Shown: positions 7,069 to 10,112 of the stretch, piece by piece
Numbering within the stretch: the first letter of the stretch is position 1
Layout of the letters: each line of letters opens with the position of its first letter
Virus record (IMG/VR): IMGVR_UViG_3300006201_000003
Location: 128,095 to 138,206 of that record
Reading direction: 5' to 3' (one strand)
DNA: 10,112 nt
DNA from: a virus
Taxonomy: Duplodnaviria > Heunggongvirae > Uroviricota > Caudoviricetes
Made by a program: the position numbers and the translations under genes
Notes under the pieces: generated by a model
What the model saw: only the letters and a program-made list of their open reading frames with translations
What the model was told of the DNA's origin: nothing
The model's database searches: none

Positions 7069-7144
7069 GCTGATGTAGTTCAGTTGGTAGAACGACTGAT
7101 TTGTAATCAGTAGGTCGCAGGTTCGACCCCTGTCATCAGCTCCA
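7069..7144 (+). tRNA. tRNA-Thr(UGU)
   Basis: 76-nt cloverleaf; GCTGATG/CATCAGC acceptor; ACTGA-TTTGTAA-TCAGT; GGTTCGAC T loop; encoded CCA. Confidence 0.95.
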
Positions 7145-7150
7145 TGTTCC

Positions 7151-7767
7151 TTGAAAACTTAATCTTTGAATCATGCTTATTACTAACTCGGTGAACAAAG
7201 TGTGTCAGCACTCCGAGGTATATGGTAATTTCGGTAGGAACTGCGAGGGATACCTTGCAGGGAGGATCGTCGTCATGCAGCGATGTAGGGCGAGGAGGCG
7301 GAAACCGCCAAGAAAAACATATTTCGCTAAGAGTTATCGCTTTGTAACGCACAGAACTTTCGGGCGCAGCAATAGACGCTCCATGTGGAGAATAAGCCTT
7401 GCAGTATATCGGGGTGGTAGCCGATTATACGGAGGTAAAACCAATAATGTGCTTCTGTCTTGATGCCGAAGAAATTCGGCTATAACGAAAGTATCTGGTT
7501 AAAGTAGCCGTAGGACAGGTTGAAAACATCTTTTCATTTTGAAAGTATGTAGACTATACAGGTCAATAATGAAATTTTCTGAATGAACGGTGAAATTTGC
7601 GGGTAGACAATCCCGTGCAGGATATGGCGCTGATGCGCTGGGGCAAGAAGTTAGGGGTCGCTCCCCGAAGCTCAGACTTGTCTCCCTGGTGGCGGAACAA
7701 CAAGGAAGATAATGGAGGTAGGGTGAAGACCCAGTAATGAGTGTGATTGAGAGATTAAGTTCTTCAA
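7151..7767 (+). ncRNA. Large structured ncRNA, probably ROOL-class (core ~7169-7748, ~580 nt)
   Basis: 5' and 3' ends pair over ~34 bp; many internal hairpins (7241-7260, 7297-7309, 7465-7480 with GAAA loop, 7654-7666, 7721-7732); lies between two tRNAs in a phage; no credible CDS. ROOL assignment rests on size and context only. Confidence 0.6.
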
Positions 7768-7791
7768 AGTAGCGAATAAAATCGCTGATAC

Positions 7792-7867
7792 GGGGCCGTA
7801 GCTCAGTTGGGAGAGCGCCTGCCTTGCAAGCAGGAGGTCGGGAGTTCAATCCTCCCTGGTTCCACCA
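7792..7867 (+). tRNA. tRNA-Ala(UGC)
   Basis: Cloverleaf; G3:U70; CCTGC-CTTGCAA-GCAGG; encoded CCA. Confidence 0.95.
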
Positions 7868-7894
7868 CGCATAGGTACTTTGACAATTTCATAT

Positions 7895-8321
7895 GGGGCC
7901 GTAAAGGATTCGACGGGGTTTTGAGAGTACAGGACTCGCAGGTAGAAGACCGCCTAAAGGCTTAAACAAAAATGAAACGACAACACTGAAACTGTCATTA
8001 TGATCCATCCCGCTTTTGCCGCTTTCATGGCTGAGAGGATTGCCGCCTGATTGGTGGAGGACTTTCCAAAACGACGTACCAGCTGGATATAGGTAAACGT
8101 CTGAGGTAAAAGATTTATCCAGCACTTGCAGTTTTTCCTTGTACTTCTGTTAAATAAAGACAAGGTGGTGGAGGTGTGCAAACCATTGTACGCCCTGGGA
8201 TAGATTTGACGGTATCGCAAGCGCCCGCTGTAATGCAACGCTGAAAAATCGTCTATTGCGTAAGAATGTCTTGTTCATGTAGGAATTTCGGACGCGGGTT
8301 CGATTCCCGCCGGCTCCACCA
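7895..8321 (+). ncRNA. ssrA: tmRNA (427 nt); predicted tag (A)DNTETVIMIHPAFAAFMAERIAA at 7979-8050
   Basis: 5' GGGGCCGTAAAGGATTCGAC and 3' GGACGCGGGTTCGATTCCCGCCGGCTCCACCA tRNA-like domain with G3:U pair, no anticodon arm; internal frame ending ...IAA-stop. Confidence 0.93.
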
Positions 8322-8474
8322 GCTGCCAGGTCGCTCCTGGCTGATGTGAGAGTAGCGCAACGCCTCACAAAGAATGATAAAGGCCGCTGAAAACTGCTGG
8401 AGGATAGTGAAGCATCAAATGATGCGTAACTGGCTGATGATAGTGTGACAATCTAAGCGACAAGCGCACAAAAT

Positions 8475-8550
8475 CTGGGTGTAGCTCAGTTGGCAGAGCG
8501 CGTGATTTGGGATCACGAGGCCGTGAGTTCGAGCCTCACCACTCAGACCA
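8475..8550 (+). tRNA. tRNA-Pro(UGG)
   Basis: CTGGGTG/CACTCAG acceptor; CGTGA-TTTGGGA-TCACG; encoded CCA. Confidence 0.95.
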
Positions 8551-8554
8551 TTTT

Positions 8555-8612
8555 GGGACACTGACAGCAATCTTAACAAAACTTTTTGGGGTAAAAAAAG
8601 AAAATGTGTTCC
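8555..8612 (+). ncRNA. ACAGCAA tRNA-like element, copy 1
   Basis: 7-bp stem GGGACAC/GTGTTCC, then TG-ACAGCAA; central hairpin 8582-8600; AAAAT before the 3' arm. Confidence 0.55.
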
Positions 8613-8615
8613 GTT

Positions 8616-8713
8616 GAGACGCTAACAGCAATTTCAAGAAATTCTATCAAATTCTACAATTTTTTAGTCTTACACAGACACCTCCAATTTTCATTTTTTC
8701 ATTGATGCGTCTC
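8616..8713 (+). ncRNA. ACAGCAA tRNA-like element, copy 2
   Basis: 7-bp stem GAGACGC/GCGTCTC (compensatory changes relative to copy 1), then TA-ACAGCAA; 84-nt AT-rich interior. Confidence 0.55.
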
Positions 8714-8729
8714 GTGAAAATCATAATAT

Positions 8730-8805
8730 TGGCTCATAGCTCAGATGGCAGAGCGCTTGACTGTTAATCAAGATGTCGCAGGTTCGATCCCTGCTGGGCC
8801 AGCCA
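8730..8805 (+). tRNA. tRNA-Asn(GUU)
   Basis: TGGCTCA/TGGGCCA acceptor, G73; CTTGA-CTGTTAA-TCAAG; encoded CCA. Confidence 0.95.
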
Positions 8806-8880
8806 GAATCTCAAAACATGACGGGGAGTTTACAGAAATAGGTGTCTACACCAGTTTCGTTTTTAGAACCGTCTATATAT

Positions 8881-8956
8881 AGCGGGGTAGAGAAGTGGTC
8901 ATCTCGCCATCCTCATAAGTTGGAAAGCGTGGGTTCGAGTCCCACCCCCGCCACCA
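8881..8956 (+). tRNA. tRNA-Met(CAU), initiator-like acceptor and D arm
   Basis: Loop CTCATAA; A1xC72 mismatch, G2-C71, C3-G70, A11-U24; lacks the three G-C anticodon-stem pairs; encoded CCA. Confidence 0.88.
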
Positions 8957-9111
8957 GGCCCGTCCTACGAACAGAGAGGAGACTGCAAACTTAATGGGAA
9001 ATGGAAATGTTCACGTTTGGCCGTGAAAACTTTAAGCAGGTTTCAAGTGAAACCGCCGCGCCACAACAGCGGAGAGTTGGCAGCATAACCAGCGCTGCGA
9101 GCTGGTTATCT

Positions 9112-9187
9112 GTGGGAATAGCTCAACTGGTAGAGCGCCGTCCTTCCAAGTCGGATGTTGCGGGTTCAATTCCCGTTTCCCACTCCA
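9112..9187 (+). tRNA. tRNA-Gly(UCC)
   Basis: GTGGGAA/TTCCCAC acceptor, U73; loop CTTCCAA; encoded CCA. Confidence 0.93.
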
Positions 9188-9190
9188 CAA

Positions 9191-9254
9191 GGGGCACTAA
9201 CAGCAACTTCACACATGGAATCAACTTTTAATTGATAGCTTAAAAATGTGTTCC
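9191..9254 (+). ncRNA. ACAGCAA tRNA-like element, copy 3, with a tRNA-Lys(UUU)-type anticodon arm and no T arm
   Basis: 7-bp stem GGGGCAC/GTGTTCC, TA-ACAGCAA, ATCAA-CTTTTAA-TTGAT at 9220-9236, then an 11-nt linker. Confidence 0.6.
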
Positions 9255-9263
9255 GTAATTTAT

Positions 9264-9350
9264 GCTGGTGTGGTGGAATTGGCAGACGCGGTGGACTCAA
9301 AATCCGCTACTGGCAACAGTGTGTGGGTTCAAATCCCACCACCAGCACCA
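9264..9350 (+). tRNA. tRNA-Leu(CAA)
   Basis: 87 nt with long variable arm (ACTG-GCAA-CAGT); loop CTCAAAA; encoded CCA. Confidence 0.95.
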
Positions 9351-9443
9351 GGAGGGCCGGTTATGGCGCATATACCGGATAGTCAAAGCGGGGTTCCCAG
9401 AGATGGTTGCAAACTTCAAAGGTAAACACCCGCCCCTCTGCCA
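9351..9443 (+). ncRNA. Putative 93-nt GCCA-ended non-cloverleaf RNA
   Basis: GGAGGG/CCCTCT stem followed by GCCA, stacked on GCGGG/CCCGC; hairpin 9357-9378; abuts the tRNA-Leu CCA. Confidence 0.45.
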
Positions 9444-9450
9444 AACAAAT

Positions 9451-9525
9451 GATGCCGTAGCCAAGATGGTAAGGCTCTGGGCTGCAACCCCAGGATCATA
9501 GGTTCAAATCCTATCGGCATCTCCA
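9451..9525 (+). tRNA. tRNA-Cys(GCA)
   Basis: GATGCCG/CGGCATC acceptor, U73; CTGGG-CTGCAAC-CCCAG; encoded CCA. Confidence 0.95.
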
Positions 9526-9528
9526 TAT

Positions 9529-9605
9529 GCGCCAATAGCTCAGTTGGATAGAGCAAGAGATTTCTAATCTCTGTGCCGTGGGTTCGAGTCCTACTTGGCG
9601 TGCCA
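9529..9605 (+). tRNA. tRNA-Arg(UCU)
   Basis: GCGCCAA/TTGGCGT acceptor; A20; AGAGA-TTTCTAA-TCTCT; encoded CCA. Confidence 0.95.
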
Positions 9606-9614
9606 ACTTAATAT

Positions 9615-9689
9615 AGGGGTGTAGCCAAGTGGTTACGGCACGGGACTTTGACTCCCGCATCACTGGTTCGAGTCCAGTCACCCCTGCCA
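9615..9689 (+). tRNA. tRNA-Gln(UUG)
   Basis: AGGGGTG/CACCCCT acceptor, G73; CGGGA-CTTTGAC-TCCCG; encoded CCA. Confidence 0.95.
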
Positions 9690-9694
9690 AATAT

Positions 9695-9771
9695 GCTCCC
9701 ATCTTCTAATTGGCATAGGAAGCCGGCCTCTCAAGCCAGCAATGCGAGTTCGAGCCTCGCTGGGAGTACCA
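9695..9771 (+). tRNA. tRNA-Glu(CUC)
   Basis: GCTCCCA/TGGGAGT acceptor; loop CTCTCAA; one C-A mismatch in the anticodon stem; encoded CCA. Confidence 0.9.
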
Positions 9772-9793
9772 ATGAAAAGAGGTGCTGTTTACG

Positions 9794-10030
9794 GTGCGGA
9801 AATCTGCTGTGGTTAAAGACGTATCTGAAAAGATTGTAAAGAAAATTCCGTCTTCTGAAAATGGGCCGGGCGTGTCCTGCACAACTAAGAATGGGCAGAA
9901 CTATCAGATCAGTCAGAATTTGGAGAAAATGAAATTTACTCTTTGGAAGGTCACAGAGAATGGCTTTATCAAGATTGCAACAGCAAATTCTCCACTTGAC
10001 CTTGATGATTTGATTCCGTGGAATGAATAG
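9794..10030 (+). CDS. Hypothetical protein (~78 aa) embedded in the tRNA array
   Basis: Fills the gap between two Glu tRNAs almost exactly; SD AGAGGTG (9778-9784) precedes in-frame GTG 9794 (GTG 9782 alternative). Confidence 0.65.
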   Translation: MRKSAVVKDVSEKIVKKIPSSENGPGVSCTTKNGQNYQISQNLEKMKFTLWKVTENGFIKIATANSPLDLDDLIPWNE

Positions 10031-10035
10031 AATAT

Positions 10036-10112
10036 GGTGCCGTGGACGAATTGGTAGAGTCACCGCCCTTTCAAGGCGGAATTTGAGAGTTCAAACCTCT
10101 CCGGCATCACCA
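10036..10112 (+). tRNA. tRNA-Glu(UUC)
   Basis: GGTGCCG/CGGCATC acceptor; CCGCC-CTTTCAA-GGCGG; encoded CCA at the window end. Confidence 0.93.

What the first reader, a model, noticed from the sequence alone, without database searches (positions are those of the whole stretch)
8555..9254. Family of three tRNA-like 'ACAGCAA' elements: constant scaffold, variable interior
Seen: copies at 8555-8612, 8616-8713 and 9191-9254 share exactly 7-bp terminal stem + T + purine + ACAGCAA ... AT + 3' arm + GT. Stems differ by compensatory changes (GGGACAC/GTGTTCC, GAGACGC/GCGTCTC, GGGGCAC/GTGTTCC); interiors are 44, 84 and 50 nt and AT-rich. The 7 bp plus U8-R9 layout copies a tRNA acceptor, but there is no T arm or encoded CCA. 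I know no function for it. Inference: a processed small-RNA family acting as tRNA decoys, or as scaffold-plus-variable guide/antisense RNAs bound by one protein.
Basis: partly seen in the sequence, partly recalled or inferred. Interest (0 to 1): 0.85.

Follow-up and report, generated by a model that had tools for sequence, protein, structure and literature searches.

The report
Phage small RNAs with Ro60-type handle
The three odd 'tRNA-like' elements are real members of a widespread, apparently undescribed family of small phage RNAs that share one conserved 'handle' and travel with a gene for a Ro60-shaped RNA-binding protein, so they are most likely that protein's partner RNAs (a viral counterpart of Y RNAs).

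Summary
Three elements (8555-8614, 8616-8715, 9191-9256) lie in a phage tRNA operon, and a fourth lies just outside the window. Each has a 7-bp terminal helix, 2 nt, an invariant ACAGCAA, a variable AU-rich interior and a G-U tail.

They are neither tRNAs nor members of any Rfam family at threshold. One weak, end-to-end match is to Dictyostelium Class I RNA (17.5 bits against a cut-off of 41.5).

The same handle occurs in 45 IMG/VR loci and beside the DUF2828 gene in 9 of 11 isolated phages, infecting E. coli, Listeria, Staphylococcus, Bacillus, Mycobacterium, Aeromonas, Campylobacter and Prevotella. The stems covary completely and ACAGCAA never changes. Six phages without DUF2828 lack it in their tRNA regions.

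A DUF2828 model matches Ro60 structures best (Foldseek E 5e-10; Z 11-13). This 20-kb fragment holds no such gene. Its 91-98% identical relative carries one, with seven more handle sites directly upstream.

Best reading (about 0.6): Y-RNA-like partner RNAs, released by tRNA processing, with the handle docking on the Ro60-like ring. The interiors display tRNA pieces; copy 3 shows a tRNA-Lys(UUU) anticodon arm.

This scan has noted the family many times on other DNA. I found no published description.

The parts
8555..8614 (+). Copy 1 (60 nt with tail). Helix 8555-8561/8606-8612, UG, ACAGCAA 8564-8570, interior hairpin CUUUUU-GGGGUAA-AAAAAG, tail GU. It starts 4 nt after the CCA of tRNA-Pro.
   Evidence: model R1 58.8 bits (it was in the training set); Rfam RF01414 aligns end to end at 17.5 bits, below its cut-off
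8616..8715 (+). Copy 2 (100 nt with tail). Helix 8616-8622/8707-8713, UA, ACAGCAA 8625-8631, 84-nt interior, tail GU. It starts 1 nt after the tail of copy 1.
   Evidence: R1 39.8 bits, E 1.4e-6, not in the training set; orthologues in L006 and L033, and related long forms in L011 and L041 whose 4-bp inner hairpin differs at paired positions
9191..9256 (+). Copy 3 (66 nt with tail). Helix 9191-9197/9248-9254, UA, ACAGCAA 9200-9206, anticodon-arm look-alike AUCAA-CUUUUAA-UUGAU at 9220-9236, tail GU. It starts 3 nt after the CCA of tRNA-Gly and ends 7 nt before tRNA-Leu.
   Evidence: R1 54 bits (it was in the training set); orthologues in L006, L011, L017, L030 and L041 keep the hairpin, and L030 has the loop CUGUUAA
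8475..8550 (+). tRNA-Pro(UGG), the upstream neighbour of copy 1 in the same transcription unit.
8730..8805 (+). tRNA-Asn(GUU), the downstream neighbour of copy 2. Cleavage at its 5' end would define the 3' trailer of copy 2.
   Evidence: the processing step is inferred
9112..9187 (+). tRNA-Gly(UCC), the upstream neighbour of copy 3.
9264..9350 (+). tRNA-Leu(CAA), the downstream neighbour of copy 3.

Best explanation
The elements are genes for small non-coding RNAs of a phage family built like Y RNAs.

The constant 'handle' consists of the 7-bp helix that joins the two ends, then U-A, single-stranded ACAGCAA-YUU, an A-A-U before the 3' strand and a G-U tail. It is the docking site for a phage-encoded Ro60-shaped protein of family DUF2828/DUF7788. 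The variable interior is displayed and often imitates a piece of tRNA; copy 3 shows the anticodon arm of tRNA-Lys(UUU).

In this phage the copies sit inside the tRNA operon. They are probably transcribed with the tRNAs and set free by the enzymes that cut out the neighbouring tRNAs. The protein gene lies elsewhere in the genome, about 40 kb away in the closest relative, where seven more handle sites sit directly upstream of it.

The particle most likely acts in the conflict over host and phage tRNAs or RNA decay. It could offer tRNA look-alikes to host enzymes or defence nucleases, or tether such factors to the ring.

Shown here:
- the family, its covarying helix and the invariant ACAGCAA;
- its linkage to DUF2828 genes;
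- the Ro60 fold of DUF2828 (a prediction).

Inferred: expression and processing of the RNAs, physical binding to the protein, and the decoy or tether role.
For: 1. The family is real and works at the RNA level.
- 45 IMG/VR loci carry it.
- In an alignment of 39 elements from more than 20 phages, all 7 helix pairs change on both sides: 85 double-change cells against 23 +/- 5 in shuffles.
- The helix contains 37 G.U and 5 U.G pairs, which would be mismatches on the other strand.
- Every real copy is on the tRNA strand.
- Between this contig and G001, an inner hairpin of copy 4 shows a compensatory G-C to A-U change, and G.U pairs become G-C in copies 1 and 3.

2. It is linked to DUF2828.
- 24 of 42 handle-bearing IMG/VR records carry the gene, although most records are fragments. 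The background is 711 of 50,697 isolated phage genomes, 1.4%.
- In G001, G003, G005, G007 and G023, clusters of 3-7 ACAGCAA sites lie directly upstream of the gene on its strand.
- Closed handle elements lie within about 2 kb of the gene in SUSP2, Bas63, List-36, Appletree2, Staphylococcus phage 6ec, KoopaTroopa, LAh_6, F374 and probably Lak-B5.
- Appletree2 and LAh_6 have no tRNA within 3.5 kb of the gene.
- Five complete phages with large tRNA arrays, plus T4, have neither the gene nor the element in the regions I scanned.

3. This contig is 91-98% identical to G001 over the tRNA array, and G001 has orthologues of all four copies plus the gene.

4. The top 12 PDB matches of the DUF2828 model are all Ro60/TROVE, aligned over most of the model: Foldseek E 5e-10 to 2e-4 and Z 13.1, 12.6 and 11.4. 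Swiss-Prot matches are Ro60 of frog, mouse, human and Deinococcus.

5. Some family members enclose a T arm, an acceptor-like hairpin and a D arm, in that order (Bas63, SUSP2, KoopaTroopa). I read this as the YrlA-type layout described in PMC4201824.

6. Literature. Bas63 gp130, which I confirmed is DUF2828, resembles Ro60 and counters the Ppl defence. Its authors guessed that Y RNAs hide among the adjacent tRNAs (PMC11482910).
Against: - No DUF2828 gene is on this 20-kb fragment. Its presence in this phage is inferred from a close relative.
- Nothing here shows that the RNAs are expressed, what their ends are, or that they bind the protein.
- Bas63 gp130 alone, moved into T7 or onto a plasmid, countered Ppl (PMC11482910). 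At least that activity does not need these RNAs.
- The handle has none of the sequence features of known Ro60 binding sites. There is no CGAA motif and no bulged helix, and the Rfam scans returned no YrlA match (E<=1 in the window, E<=0.1 in three related loci).
- Two DUF2828 loci gave no clear element nearby: Erwinia pEa_SNUABM_44 and Vibrio Va3.
- Three records rated 87-100% complete lack the gene, though those ratings may be too high.
- The structural model is of middling confidence (pLDDT 74.9).
Confidence: 0.6

Rival explanations
1. The RNAs are real and belong to the DUF2828 gene neighbourhood, but the handle is read by something else. Candidates are an RNA-repair or tRNA-modifying enzyme encoded nearby, a processing nuclease, or a host protein such as an RRM or Hfq-type binder. 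The Ro60-like protein would then work on other RNAs.
For: - gp130 works without these RNAs in T7 (PMC11482910).
- In G001 the gene is followed by a cysteine-desulfurase-type aminotransferase, a P-loop kinase of the AAA_33/KTI12 type and a PAPS-reductase-domain protein. List-36 has an RtcB-type ligase 1.3 kb downstream.
- The only protein shown to bind the look-alike Dictyostelium Class I RNA directly is an RRM protein, Rnp1A (PMC7919456).
Against: DUF2828 is the only gene seen next to the elements in all the lineages I looked at. The other neighbours differ from phage to phage. Gene-adjacent, same-strand small RNAs are the known arrangement for Ro60 and Y RNAs (PMC4201824, PMC12135203).
Confidence: 0.2
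2. The elements are processing punctuation or decayed tRNA genes of the tRNA operon. On this view they are acceptor-stem-like hairpins that guide RNase P, RNase Z or RNase E cuts, or relics, and have no function of their own in trans.
For: - They sit 1-4 nt after a tRNA 3' end or after another copy.
- The helix is 7 bp long, with U at -1 in 42 of 57, G at +1 in 50 of 57, and G-U after the helix. From my own knowledge, these suit RNase P and RNase Z.
- One relative (L013) encloses a true T arm.
Against: - ACAGCAA is invariant in phages of four bacterial phyla while the stems change freely. Relics would not show that.
- The elements occur next to DUF2828 where no tRNA is near.
- They are absent from the tRNA regions of six phages without DUF2828.
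- Their 5' leaders (UUUU, GUU, CAA) differ from the UAU/AAU leader of the tRNAs here.
Confidence: 0.08
3. The elements are guide or antisense RNAs. The constant handle loads a protein, and the variable interior base-pairs with host or phage transcripts.
For: The layout is a constant scaffold with a variable interior. The interiors differ strongly between copies.
Against: The interiors fold into hairpins that are kept between related phages, one with a compensatory change. Many are anticodon-arm look-alikes rather than open strands. They are AU-rich and of low complexity. I did not search for targets because the host is unknown.
Confidence: 0.07
4. The elements are DNA-level repeats, such as miniature mobile elements or recombination sites with terminal inverted repeats.
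For: They have 7-bp inverted termini around an AT-rich interior, occur in several copies per genome, and include a tandem pair (copies 1 and 2).
Against: The helix holds 42 wobble pairs that would be A.C mismatches on the other strand. Orientation always follows the tRNAs or the DUF2828 gene. There are no target-site duplications and no transposase nearby. Interior hairpins are conserved.
Confidence: 0.02

Closest known systems
Ro60 (Rsr/TROVE) with Y RNAs: bacterial YrlA/YrlB, mycobacteriophage YrlA, Thermus phage phiLo Ro60 with Yrl1/Yrl2 (PMC4201824, PMC12135203; Rfam RF02553)
   Same: - Small RNAs whose two ends pair in a stem.
- They are encoded in one to several copies next to, and on the strand of, a ring-plus-vWA protein.
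- Some members carry a tRNA-like module in the T arm, acceptor, D arm order.
- The protein here is predicted to have the Ro60 fold.
   Different: - The protein belongs to another sequence family (DUF2828 + DUF7788) and has no sequence-level match to any solved Ro60.
- The RNA handle is a short 7-bp helix plus single-stranded ACAGCAA, not a long bulged helix with a CGAA-type motif.
- The Rfam scans returned no YrlA match.
- The copies in this window lie far from the protein gene, inside a tRNA operon.
Dictyostelid Class I RNAs (Rfam RF01414; Kjellin et al. 2021, PMC7919456)
   Same: The design is almost the same:
- about 60 nt, low G+C, and a conserved G at the 5' end;
- a short terminal stem that covaries;
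- directly after the stem, a conserved single-stranded motif that ends in ACAGCAA (Rfam consensus CCUUACAGCAAU against C-U-R-ACAGCAA-Y here);
- a variable remainder;
- a 3' end of C plus (U)GU.

The Rfam model aligns copy 1 from first to last position.
   Different: - The score is far below the family's cut-off (17.5 against 41.5 bits), and copy 3 gives no match.
- The stem is 7 bp, not 6.
- These are phage genes in a tRNA operon, not nuclear genes with a DUSE promoter.
- The known direct binder in Dictyostelium is the RRM protein Rnp1A.
- Common descent is not shown.
Phage T4 species 1 and species 2 RNAs (rnaC, rnaD)
   Same: They are stable small RNAs of unknown function, encoded inside a phage tRNA cluster and, from my own knowledge, matured with the tRNAs.
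   Different: The T4 RNAs have no ACAGCAA handle with a closing 7-bp helix (no model hit). T4 has no DUF2828 gene.
T-armless or armless mitochondrial tRNAs
   Same: Copy 3 has a 7-bp acceptor-like helix, a 2-nt spacer, an anticodon-arm-like hairpin and a short 11-nt replacement where the variable and T arms would be.
   Different: There is no D stem, because ACAGCAA-YUU stands in its place, and no CCA although every tRNA of this contig encodes one. Copies 1, 2 and 4 have no anticodon-like loop. The constant part is shared with RNAs that clearly are not tRNAs.

Membership tests
ACAGCAA-handle small RNAs that accompany DUF2828 genes in phages (no name, not in Rfam 15) | Terminal 7-bp helix joining the 5' and 3' ends, with covariation | tested here: met
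   Copies 1-3 pair 7/7. In the alignment of 39 members, all 7 pairs change on both sides. The rows were chosen for pairing, so the percentage paired is circular, but the double changes are not.
ACAGCAA-handle small RNAs that accompany DUF2828 genes in phages (no name, not in Rfam 15) | Invariant ACAGCAA 2 nt after the 5' strand, followed by Y-U-U; A-rich run and G-U tail at the 3' side | tested here: met
   model R1 scores copy 2, which it had not seen, at 39.8 bits
ACAGCAA-handle small RNAs that accompany DUF2828 genes in phages (no name, not in Rfam 15) | A DUF2828 (Ro60-fold) gene in the same genome | tested here: inconclusive
   There is none on the 20-kb fragment, which is rated 15% complete. 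The gene is present in G001, which is 91-98% identical over the tRNA array, with seven handle sites directly upstream.
ACAGCAA-handle small RNAs that accompany DUF2828 genes in phages (no name, not in Rfam 15) | Expressed as discrete small RNAs | not testable with these tools
Y RNA / YrlA (Rfam RF02553) | Match to the Rfam model | tested here: not met
   No YrlA match appeared among hits at E<=1 in the window or at E<=0.1 in three related loci
Y RNA / YrlA (Rfam RF02553) | Encoded within a few kb of a TROVE-domain Ro60 gene on the same strand | tested here: not met
   No such gene is on the contig. The family's partner is DUF2828, which has the Ro60 fold but is not in the Pfam TROVE family.
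Y RNA / YrlA (Rfam RF02553) | tRNA-like domain with T and D arms | tested here: not met
   Copies 1-3 have neither arm. Other members of the handle family do.
Dictyostelid Class I RNA (Rfam RF01414) | Score at or above the Rfam gathering cut-off | tested here: not met
   Copy 1 scores 17.5 bits against 41.5, with E 0.58 in a 181-nt search. Copy 3 has no match.
Dictyostelid Class I RNA (Rfam RF01414) | Short terminal stem plus the conserved motif ending in ACAGCAA next to the 5' strand; variable remainder; about 60 nt | tested here: met
   the description of the class is in PMC7919456
Dictyostelid Class I RNA (Rfam RF01414) | DUSE promoter about 60 nt upstream; found in Dictyostelia only | tested here: not met
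   The elements lie 1-4 nt behind a tRNA or another copy, in a phage
tRNA (Rfam RF00005) | Cloverleaf with D and T arms, found by tRNA finders | tested here: not met
   ARAGORN and the Rfam tRNA model find 12 tRNAs in the window but none of the three elements
tRNA (Rfam RF00005) | Encoded CCA end, as in all tRNAs of this contig | tested here: not met
   All 18 tRNAs end in CCA; the elements end in G-U

The most novel reading that the evidence does not exclude
The phage ACAGCAA-handle RNAs and the Class I RNAs of Dictyostelium are the same kind of RNA, either by descent or by transfer between bacteria or phages and the amoebae that eat them. If so, the orphan Class I RNAs would also work through a Ro60-shaped (DUF2828-type) protein. 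The DUF2828 family, which is also present in plants and other eukaryotes, would then be a second, unrecognised branch of Ro60/Y-RNA particles across life.
Probability: 0.1. Interest if true: 0.85.

Novelty: new variant of a known kind. Interest (0 to 1): 0.65.

Why it matters
Ro60 and its Y RNAs are a textbook RNA-surveillance particle. In bacteria and phages only the TROVE branch has known partner RNAs. DUF2828 proteins occur in about 1.4% of sequenced phages, including well-studied ones: Felix O1 relatives, the Listeria phage List-36 (a Pecentumvirus) and some mycobacteriophages. One of them, Bas63 gp130, was recently shown to defeat a bacterial defence system. Its RNA partners have only been guessed at.

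A simple, recognisable handle (7-bp helix plus ACAGCAA) would allow three things:
- annotating these RNAs in many phage genomes, where some now lie under spurious ORFs;
- testing directly what the particle binds;
- asking why phages display pieces of tRNA, for instance as baits for anticodon nucleases.

This window adds that members can be scattered in the tRNA operon, tens of kilobases from the protein gene. The near-identity of the handle to Dictyostelium Class I RNAs also offers a concrete lead for an RNA class whose mechanism has been open for twenty years.

Tried and rejected
- Rfam 15 scan of the whole window at E<=1, and of the elements alone at E<=10. Nothing reached threshold; the only hit was the sub-threshold Class I match.
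- tRNA reading: rejected.
- blastn of the region against isolated phages found only the flanking tRNAs.
- Integron attC sites, CRISPR repeats, self-cleaving ribozymes and terminators: considered from the sequence and dropped, because their signature motifs or U-runs are absent. Only the Rfam scans tested this formally.
- Sequence search of the DUF2828 protein against PDB chains gave no match at E<=10. Only the fold comparison shows the Ro60 likeness.
- A YrlA match in related loci that hold T and D arms: none at E<=0.1.
- T4 rnaC/rnaD as relatives: no handle.
- Whether Dictyostelium has a DUF2828 protein: the AlphaFold cluster search hides organisms, Swiss-Prot showed none, and the Avesson 2011 paper is not held. 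The question stays open.
- Folding of the other non-tRNA spacers gave no significant structure signal, with z-scores of -0.6 to -1.9.
- Complex prediction was not used, because it takes no RNA chain.
Full report
**Where the window lies**

The window is bases 3000-13111 of a 20,322-bp IMG/VR phage fragment rated 15% complete. The fragment carries an integrase, an HNH nuclease, an HU-like protein and a terminase. It also carries one long RNA operon on the + strand. That operon holds 18 tRNAs that all encode CCA, a ROOL RNA (window 7163-7751, 379 bits) and a tmRNA (7895-8321, 93 bits).

**The observation**

A fourth copy lies outside the window, between tRNA-Ser and tRNA-Lys (contig 14189-14256). 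Minimum-energy folds close the 7-bp terminal helix in all four. ACAGCAA is left fully unpaired in three; in copy 3 three of its bases pair. ARAGORN and the Rfam tRNA model do not call them.

**A real family, not chance**

- I scanned IMG/VR with a pattern taken only from the 5' side (GRGRCRCTRACAGCAAYTT). It returned 45 loci.
- In 43 of the 45 matched loci a perfect 7-bp partner strand followed 52-106 nt downstream, nearly always with G-U after it.
- A looser scan of these loci gave about 50 distinct elements, most of them inside or beside tRNA arrays and on the tRNA strand.
- Over 0.5 Mb of fetched DNA, 80 of 179 distinct ACAGCAA sites close 7/7 in the canonical register. Registers 19-29 nt further upstream close in 6-9% of cases. 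A reversed control core occurs only 50 times and closes twice.
- The consensus over 57 distinct members is: U-rich leader (U at -1 in 74%), G-R-G-R-C-R-C, U, A, ACAGCAA, Y-U-U, A-rich interior, A-A-U, G-Y-G-U-C-Y-C, G, U.
- The helix contains 37 G.U and 5 U.G pairs. These would be mismatches on the opposite strand, so the structure belongs to the tRNA-sense RNA.

**Formal covariation and a model**

MAFFT aligned 39 elements from more than 20 phages, with both helix strands in register. All seven pairs show changes on both sides. There were 85 double-change cells against 23 +/- 5 in shuffles, and a covariation score of 0.91 against 0.33; sliding the partner by 1-3 columns destroys the signal. 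The rows were picked for perfect pairing, so the 100% paired figure is circular. The double changes are not.

A covariance model built from this alignment (R1) finds copy 2, which it had not seen, at 39.8 bits (E 1.4e-6). It finds no further copy in the contig. It finds nothing at E<=1 in the T4 tRNA region or in the tRNA arrays of five other phages.

**Comparison with known RNA families**

No Rfam 15 family reaches its threshold. The one suggestive match is RF01414, Class I RNA of Dictyostelium. It aligns copy 1 from model position 1 to 56 at 17.5 bits (cut-off 41.5; E 0.58 in a 181-nt search). The Rfam consensus reads GaUcuCCUUACAGCAAU...GagAuCUG.

Kjellin et al. describe the class as 42-65 nt, with a 6-bp covarying stem joining the ends, an 11-nt conserved unstructured motif next to the 5' strand and a variable remainder. 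They also report a fully conserved 5' G and a CUGU end, and say the class is confined to dictyostelids (PMC7919456). The design is therefore almost the same, but membership is not shown.

**The lead to a protein**

A look-up of this scan's earlier notes showed that other windows had led agents to pair 'stem plus ACAGCAA' RNAs with a Ro60-like protein of family DUF2828. I treated this as a lead and tested it on my own data.

- *This contig.* It has no such gene.
- *IMG/VR records.* Of 42 handle-bearing records, 24 have the gene although most are fragments. Seven of the ten rated at least 87% complete have it. In the collection of isolated phages only 711 of 50,697 genomes (1.4%) have it.
- *Position.* In five records (G001, G003, G005, G007, G023) a cluster of 3-7 ACAGCAA sites lies directly upstream of the gene on its strand.
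- *The closest relative.* G001 is 117 kb and 91-98% identical to this contig over the tRNA array. It holds orthologues of all four copies at 15.0-17.6 kb. It holds the DUF2828 gene at 60.3 kb, with seven handle sites at 58.9-60.2 kb.

**Isolated phages**

| Phage | Host | Closed handle elements near the DUF2828 gene |
|---|---|---|
| SUSP2 | E. coli | 3 |
| Bas63 | E. coli | 2 |
| List-36 | Listeria | 3 |
| Appletree2 | Mycobacterium | 2 |
| 6ec | Staphylococcus | 3 |
| KoopaTroopa | Bacillus | 4 |
| LAh_6 | Aeromonas | 3 |
| F374 | Campylobacter | 2 |
| Lak-B5 | Prevotella | probably 1 |
| Va3 | Vibrio | unclear |
| pEa_SNUABM_44 | Erwinia | none within 3.5 kb |

- The stems are quite different from phage to phage (AGACCGT, AGGAATC, TGAGCGC, AAGACAC, TAGACAC, GGATTAC and others), while ACAGCAA never changes.
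- Appletree2 and LAh_6 have no tRNA within 3.5 kb of the gene, and phage 6ec has only one tRNA, 1.4 kb beyond the elements. The elements therefore follow the gene, not tRNA arrays.
- In the reverse test, five complete phages with large tRNA arrays, plus T4, have no DUF2828 gene. The tRNA regions I scanned in them have no handle element.

**What the protein is**

The G001 protein (519 aa) matches Pfam DUF2828 and DUF7788. It has only faint hits to vWA models and no sequence match to any solved structure. An AlphaFold2 model built from 37 homologues (pLDDT 74.9) was compared with three libraries.

- *PDB, Foldseek.* The top 12 matches are all Ro60/TROVE: Thermus phage phiLo, Xenopus, human and Deinococcus, with E from 5e-10 to 2e-4.
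- *PDB, alignment-based search.* The top three are Ro60 proteins at Z 13.1, 12.6 and 11.4, spanning residues 34-509 for the best match.
- *Swiss-Prot models.* The best matches are Ro60 of frog, mouse, human and Deinococcus, then telomerase p80.

Some GenBank records already call these genes 'Ro-like RNA binding protein'.

**Published knowledge**

- Chen et al. found YrlA-type Y RNAs only next to TROVE-domain proteins (PMC4201824).
- The phiLo study concerns a TROVE Ro60 with two CGAA-type Y-like RNAs (PMC12135203).
- A preprint on phage Bas63 reports that gp130 resembles Ro60 and counters the Ppl defence system. [quoted passage not shown]
- I confirmed that bas63_0130 is a DUF2828 protein. I also found two unannotated handle RNAs in the tRNA array behind it. 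One lies partly under the annotated ORF bas63_0137, on the opposite strand.
- A full-text search for DUF2828 gave five unrelated papers. I found no description of the RNA family.

**What the interiors show**

- Copy 3 holds AUCAA-CUUUUAA-UUGAU (9220-9236). Its loop is identical to the anticodon loop of the contig's own tRNA-Lys. Orthologues in five related phage groups keep this hairpin, and one has CUGUUAA, an Asn-type loop.
- Hairpins of 5 bp with a Y-U-NNN-R-N loop occur in 16 of 57 members against 0.9 +/- 0.95 in shuffled interiors. Related sequences inflate that count; about eight types are independent.
- Copy 1 has a U-run/A-run hairpin with a G-G-containing loop. A similar hairpin stands in the short elements of Bas63 and SUSP2.
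- Between this contig and G001, copy 4 shows a G-C to A-U compensatory change in its first inner hairpin. G.U pairs in the outer helices of copies 1 and 3 become G-C.
- Other family members enclose a T arm, an acceptor-like hairpin and a D arm, in that order. I read this as the layout described for YrlA. The Rfam tRNA model also hits three 114-118-nt stretches upstream of the G001 gene that span ACAGCAA sites.

**Likely mechanism**

*Shown:*
- a conserved RNA-level handle with a variable interior;
- tight genomic coupling to a protein predicted to have the Ro60 fold;
- tRNA-piece mimicry in part of the family.

*Inferred:*
- The copies in this window are transcribed with the tRNAs and freed when the neighbouring tRNAs are cut out. 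The U at -1, the G at +1 and the G-U after the helix would suit RNase P and RNase Z; that rests on my knowledge of those enzymes, not on a test here.
- The handle docks on the Ro60-like ring, as Y RNA stems do.
- The displayed interior engages enzymes or defence nucleases that recognise tRNA parts, as bait or as tether.

The genes behind DUF2828 in G001 are a cysteine-desulfurase-type aminotransferase, a P-loop kinase of the polynucleotide-kinase/KTI12 type, a PAPS-reductase-domain protein and a weak RNA-ligase-like OB fold. List-36 has an RtcB-type ligase nearby. Both fit a tRNA repair or modification setting, as in bacterial rsr-yrlA-rtcB operons.

**Cautions**

- The gene is not on this fragment.
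- gp130 can act without these RNAs against one defence system.

**Verdict**

The decoy idea is plausible for copy 3. The guide idea is unsupported.
- The thing is best filed as a new variant of the Ro60/Y-RNA kind, with a different protein family and a different RNA handle. The literature and Rfam copy I could search do not describe it.
- This scan has met it repeatedly on other DNA. This window adds that members can be scattered through a tRNA operon far from the protein gene.

Noticed in passing
window 7163-7751 (+): A full-length ROOL RNA (Rfam RF03087, 379 bits, E 5e-88) lies between tRNA-Thr and tRNA-Ala in the same operon as the handle RNAs.
   Followed up: no
window 7895-8321 (+): A phage-encoded tmRNA (Rfam RF00023, 93 bits, model 1-374) stands right after tRNA-Ala. 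ARAGORN did not report it.
   Followed up: no
window 9772-10035 and contig 13112-13359 (L004:113-360): Two spacers between tRNAs hold similar small ORFs (about 70-80 aa; shared stretches such as KIVKKIP and FTLW). The second stretch (contig 13112-13357) is missing from the near-identical L033 and from G001, so it is a recent insertion or deletion.
   Followed up: partly
L004:593-934 (contig 13592-13933): A 342-nt G+C-rich spacer between tRNA-Thr(CGU) and tRNA-Tyr has no long ORF and no Rfam match at E<=1. Its fold z-score is only -1.3. It may be another structured RNA.
   Followed up: partly
window 8957-9111 and 9351-9450: Two further non-tRNA spacers share the motif TGCAAACTT(A/C)A. The second is closed by GGAGGGC/GCCCCTC. 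No Rfam match, and the fold statistics are weak.
   Followed up: partly
window 7069-10112 and L004:1-1341: All 18 tRNAs encode CCA, and nearly all are preceded by TAT or AAT at -3 to -1. This uniform leader is not shared by the handle RNAs.
   Followed up: no
L075:3249-3401 (Bas63 record 82748-82900): The annotated ORF bas63_0137 lies on the opposite strand within a 126-nt handle RNA (L075:3282-3407) that encloses a T arm and a D arm. The ORF is probably spurious.
   Followed up: partly
L082:233-6177 (G001 61.9-67.9 kb): Behind the DUF2828 gene of the sister phage lie a class-V aminotransferase (cysteine desulfurase type), an AAA_33/KTI12-type kinase, a PAPS-reductase-domain protein and a weak RNA-ligase-like OB fold. 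Together they may form a tRNA thiolation or repair island.
   Followed up: partly
L056:1575-1688, 1902-2016, 2022-2139 (G001): Three 114-118-nt stretches match the Rfam tRNA model end to end (43-52 bits). Each spans an ACAGCAA site. They lie directly upstream of the DUF2828 gene.
   Followed up: partly
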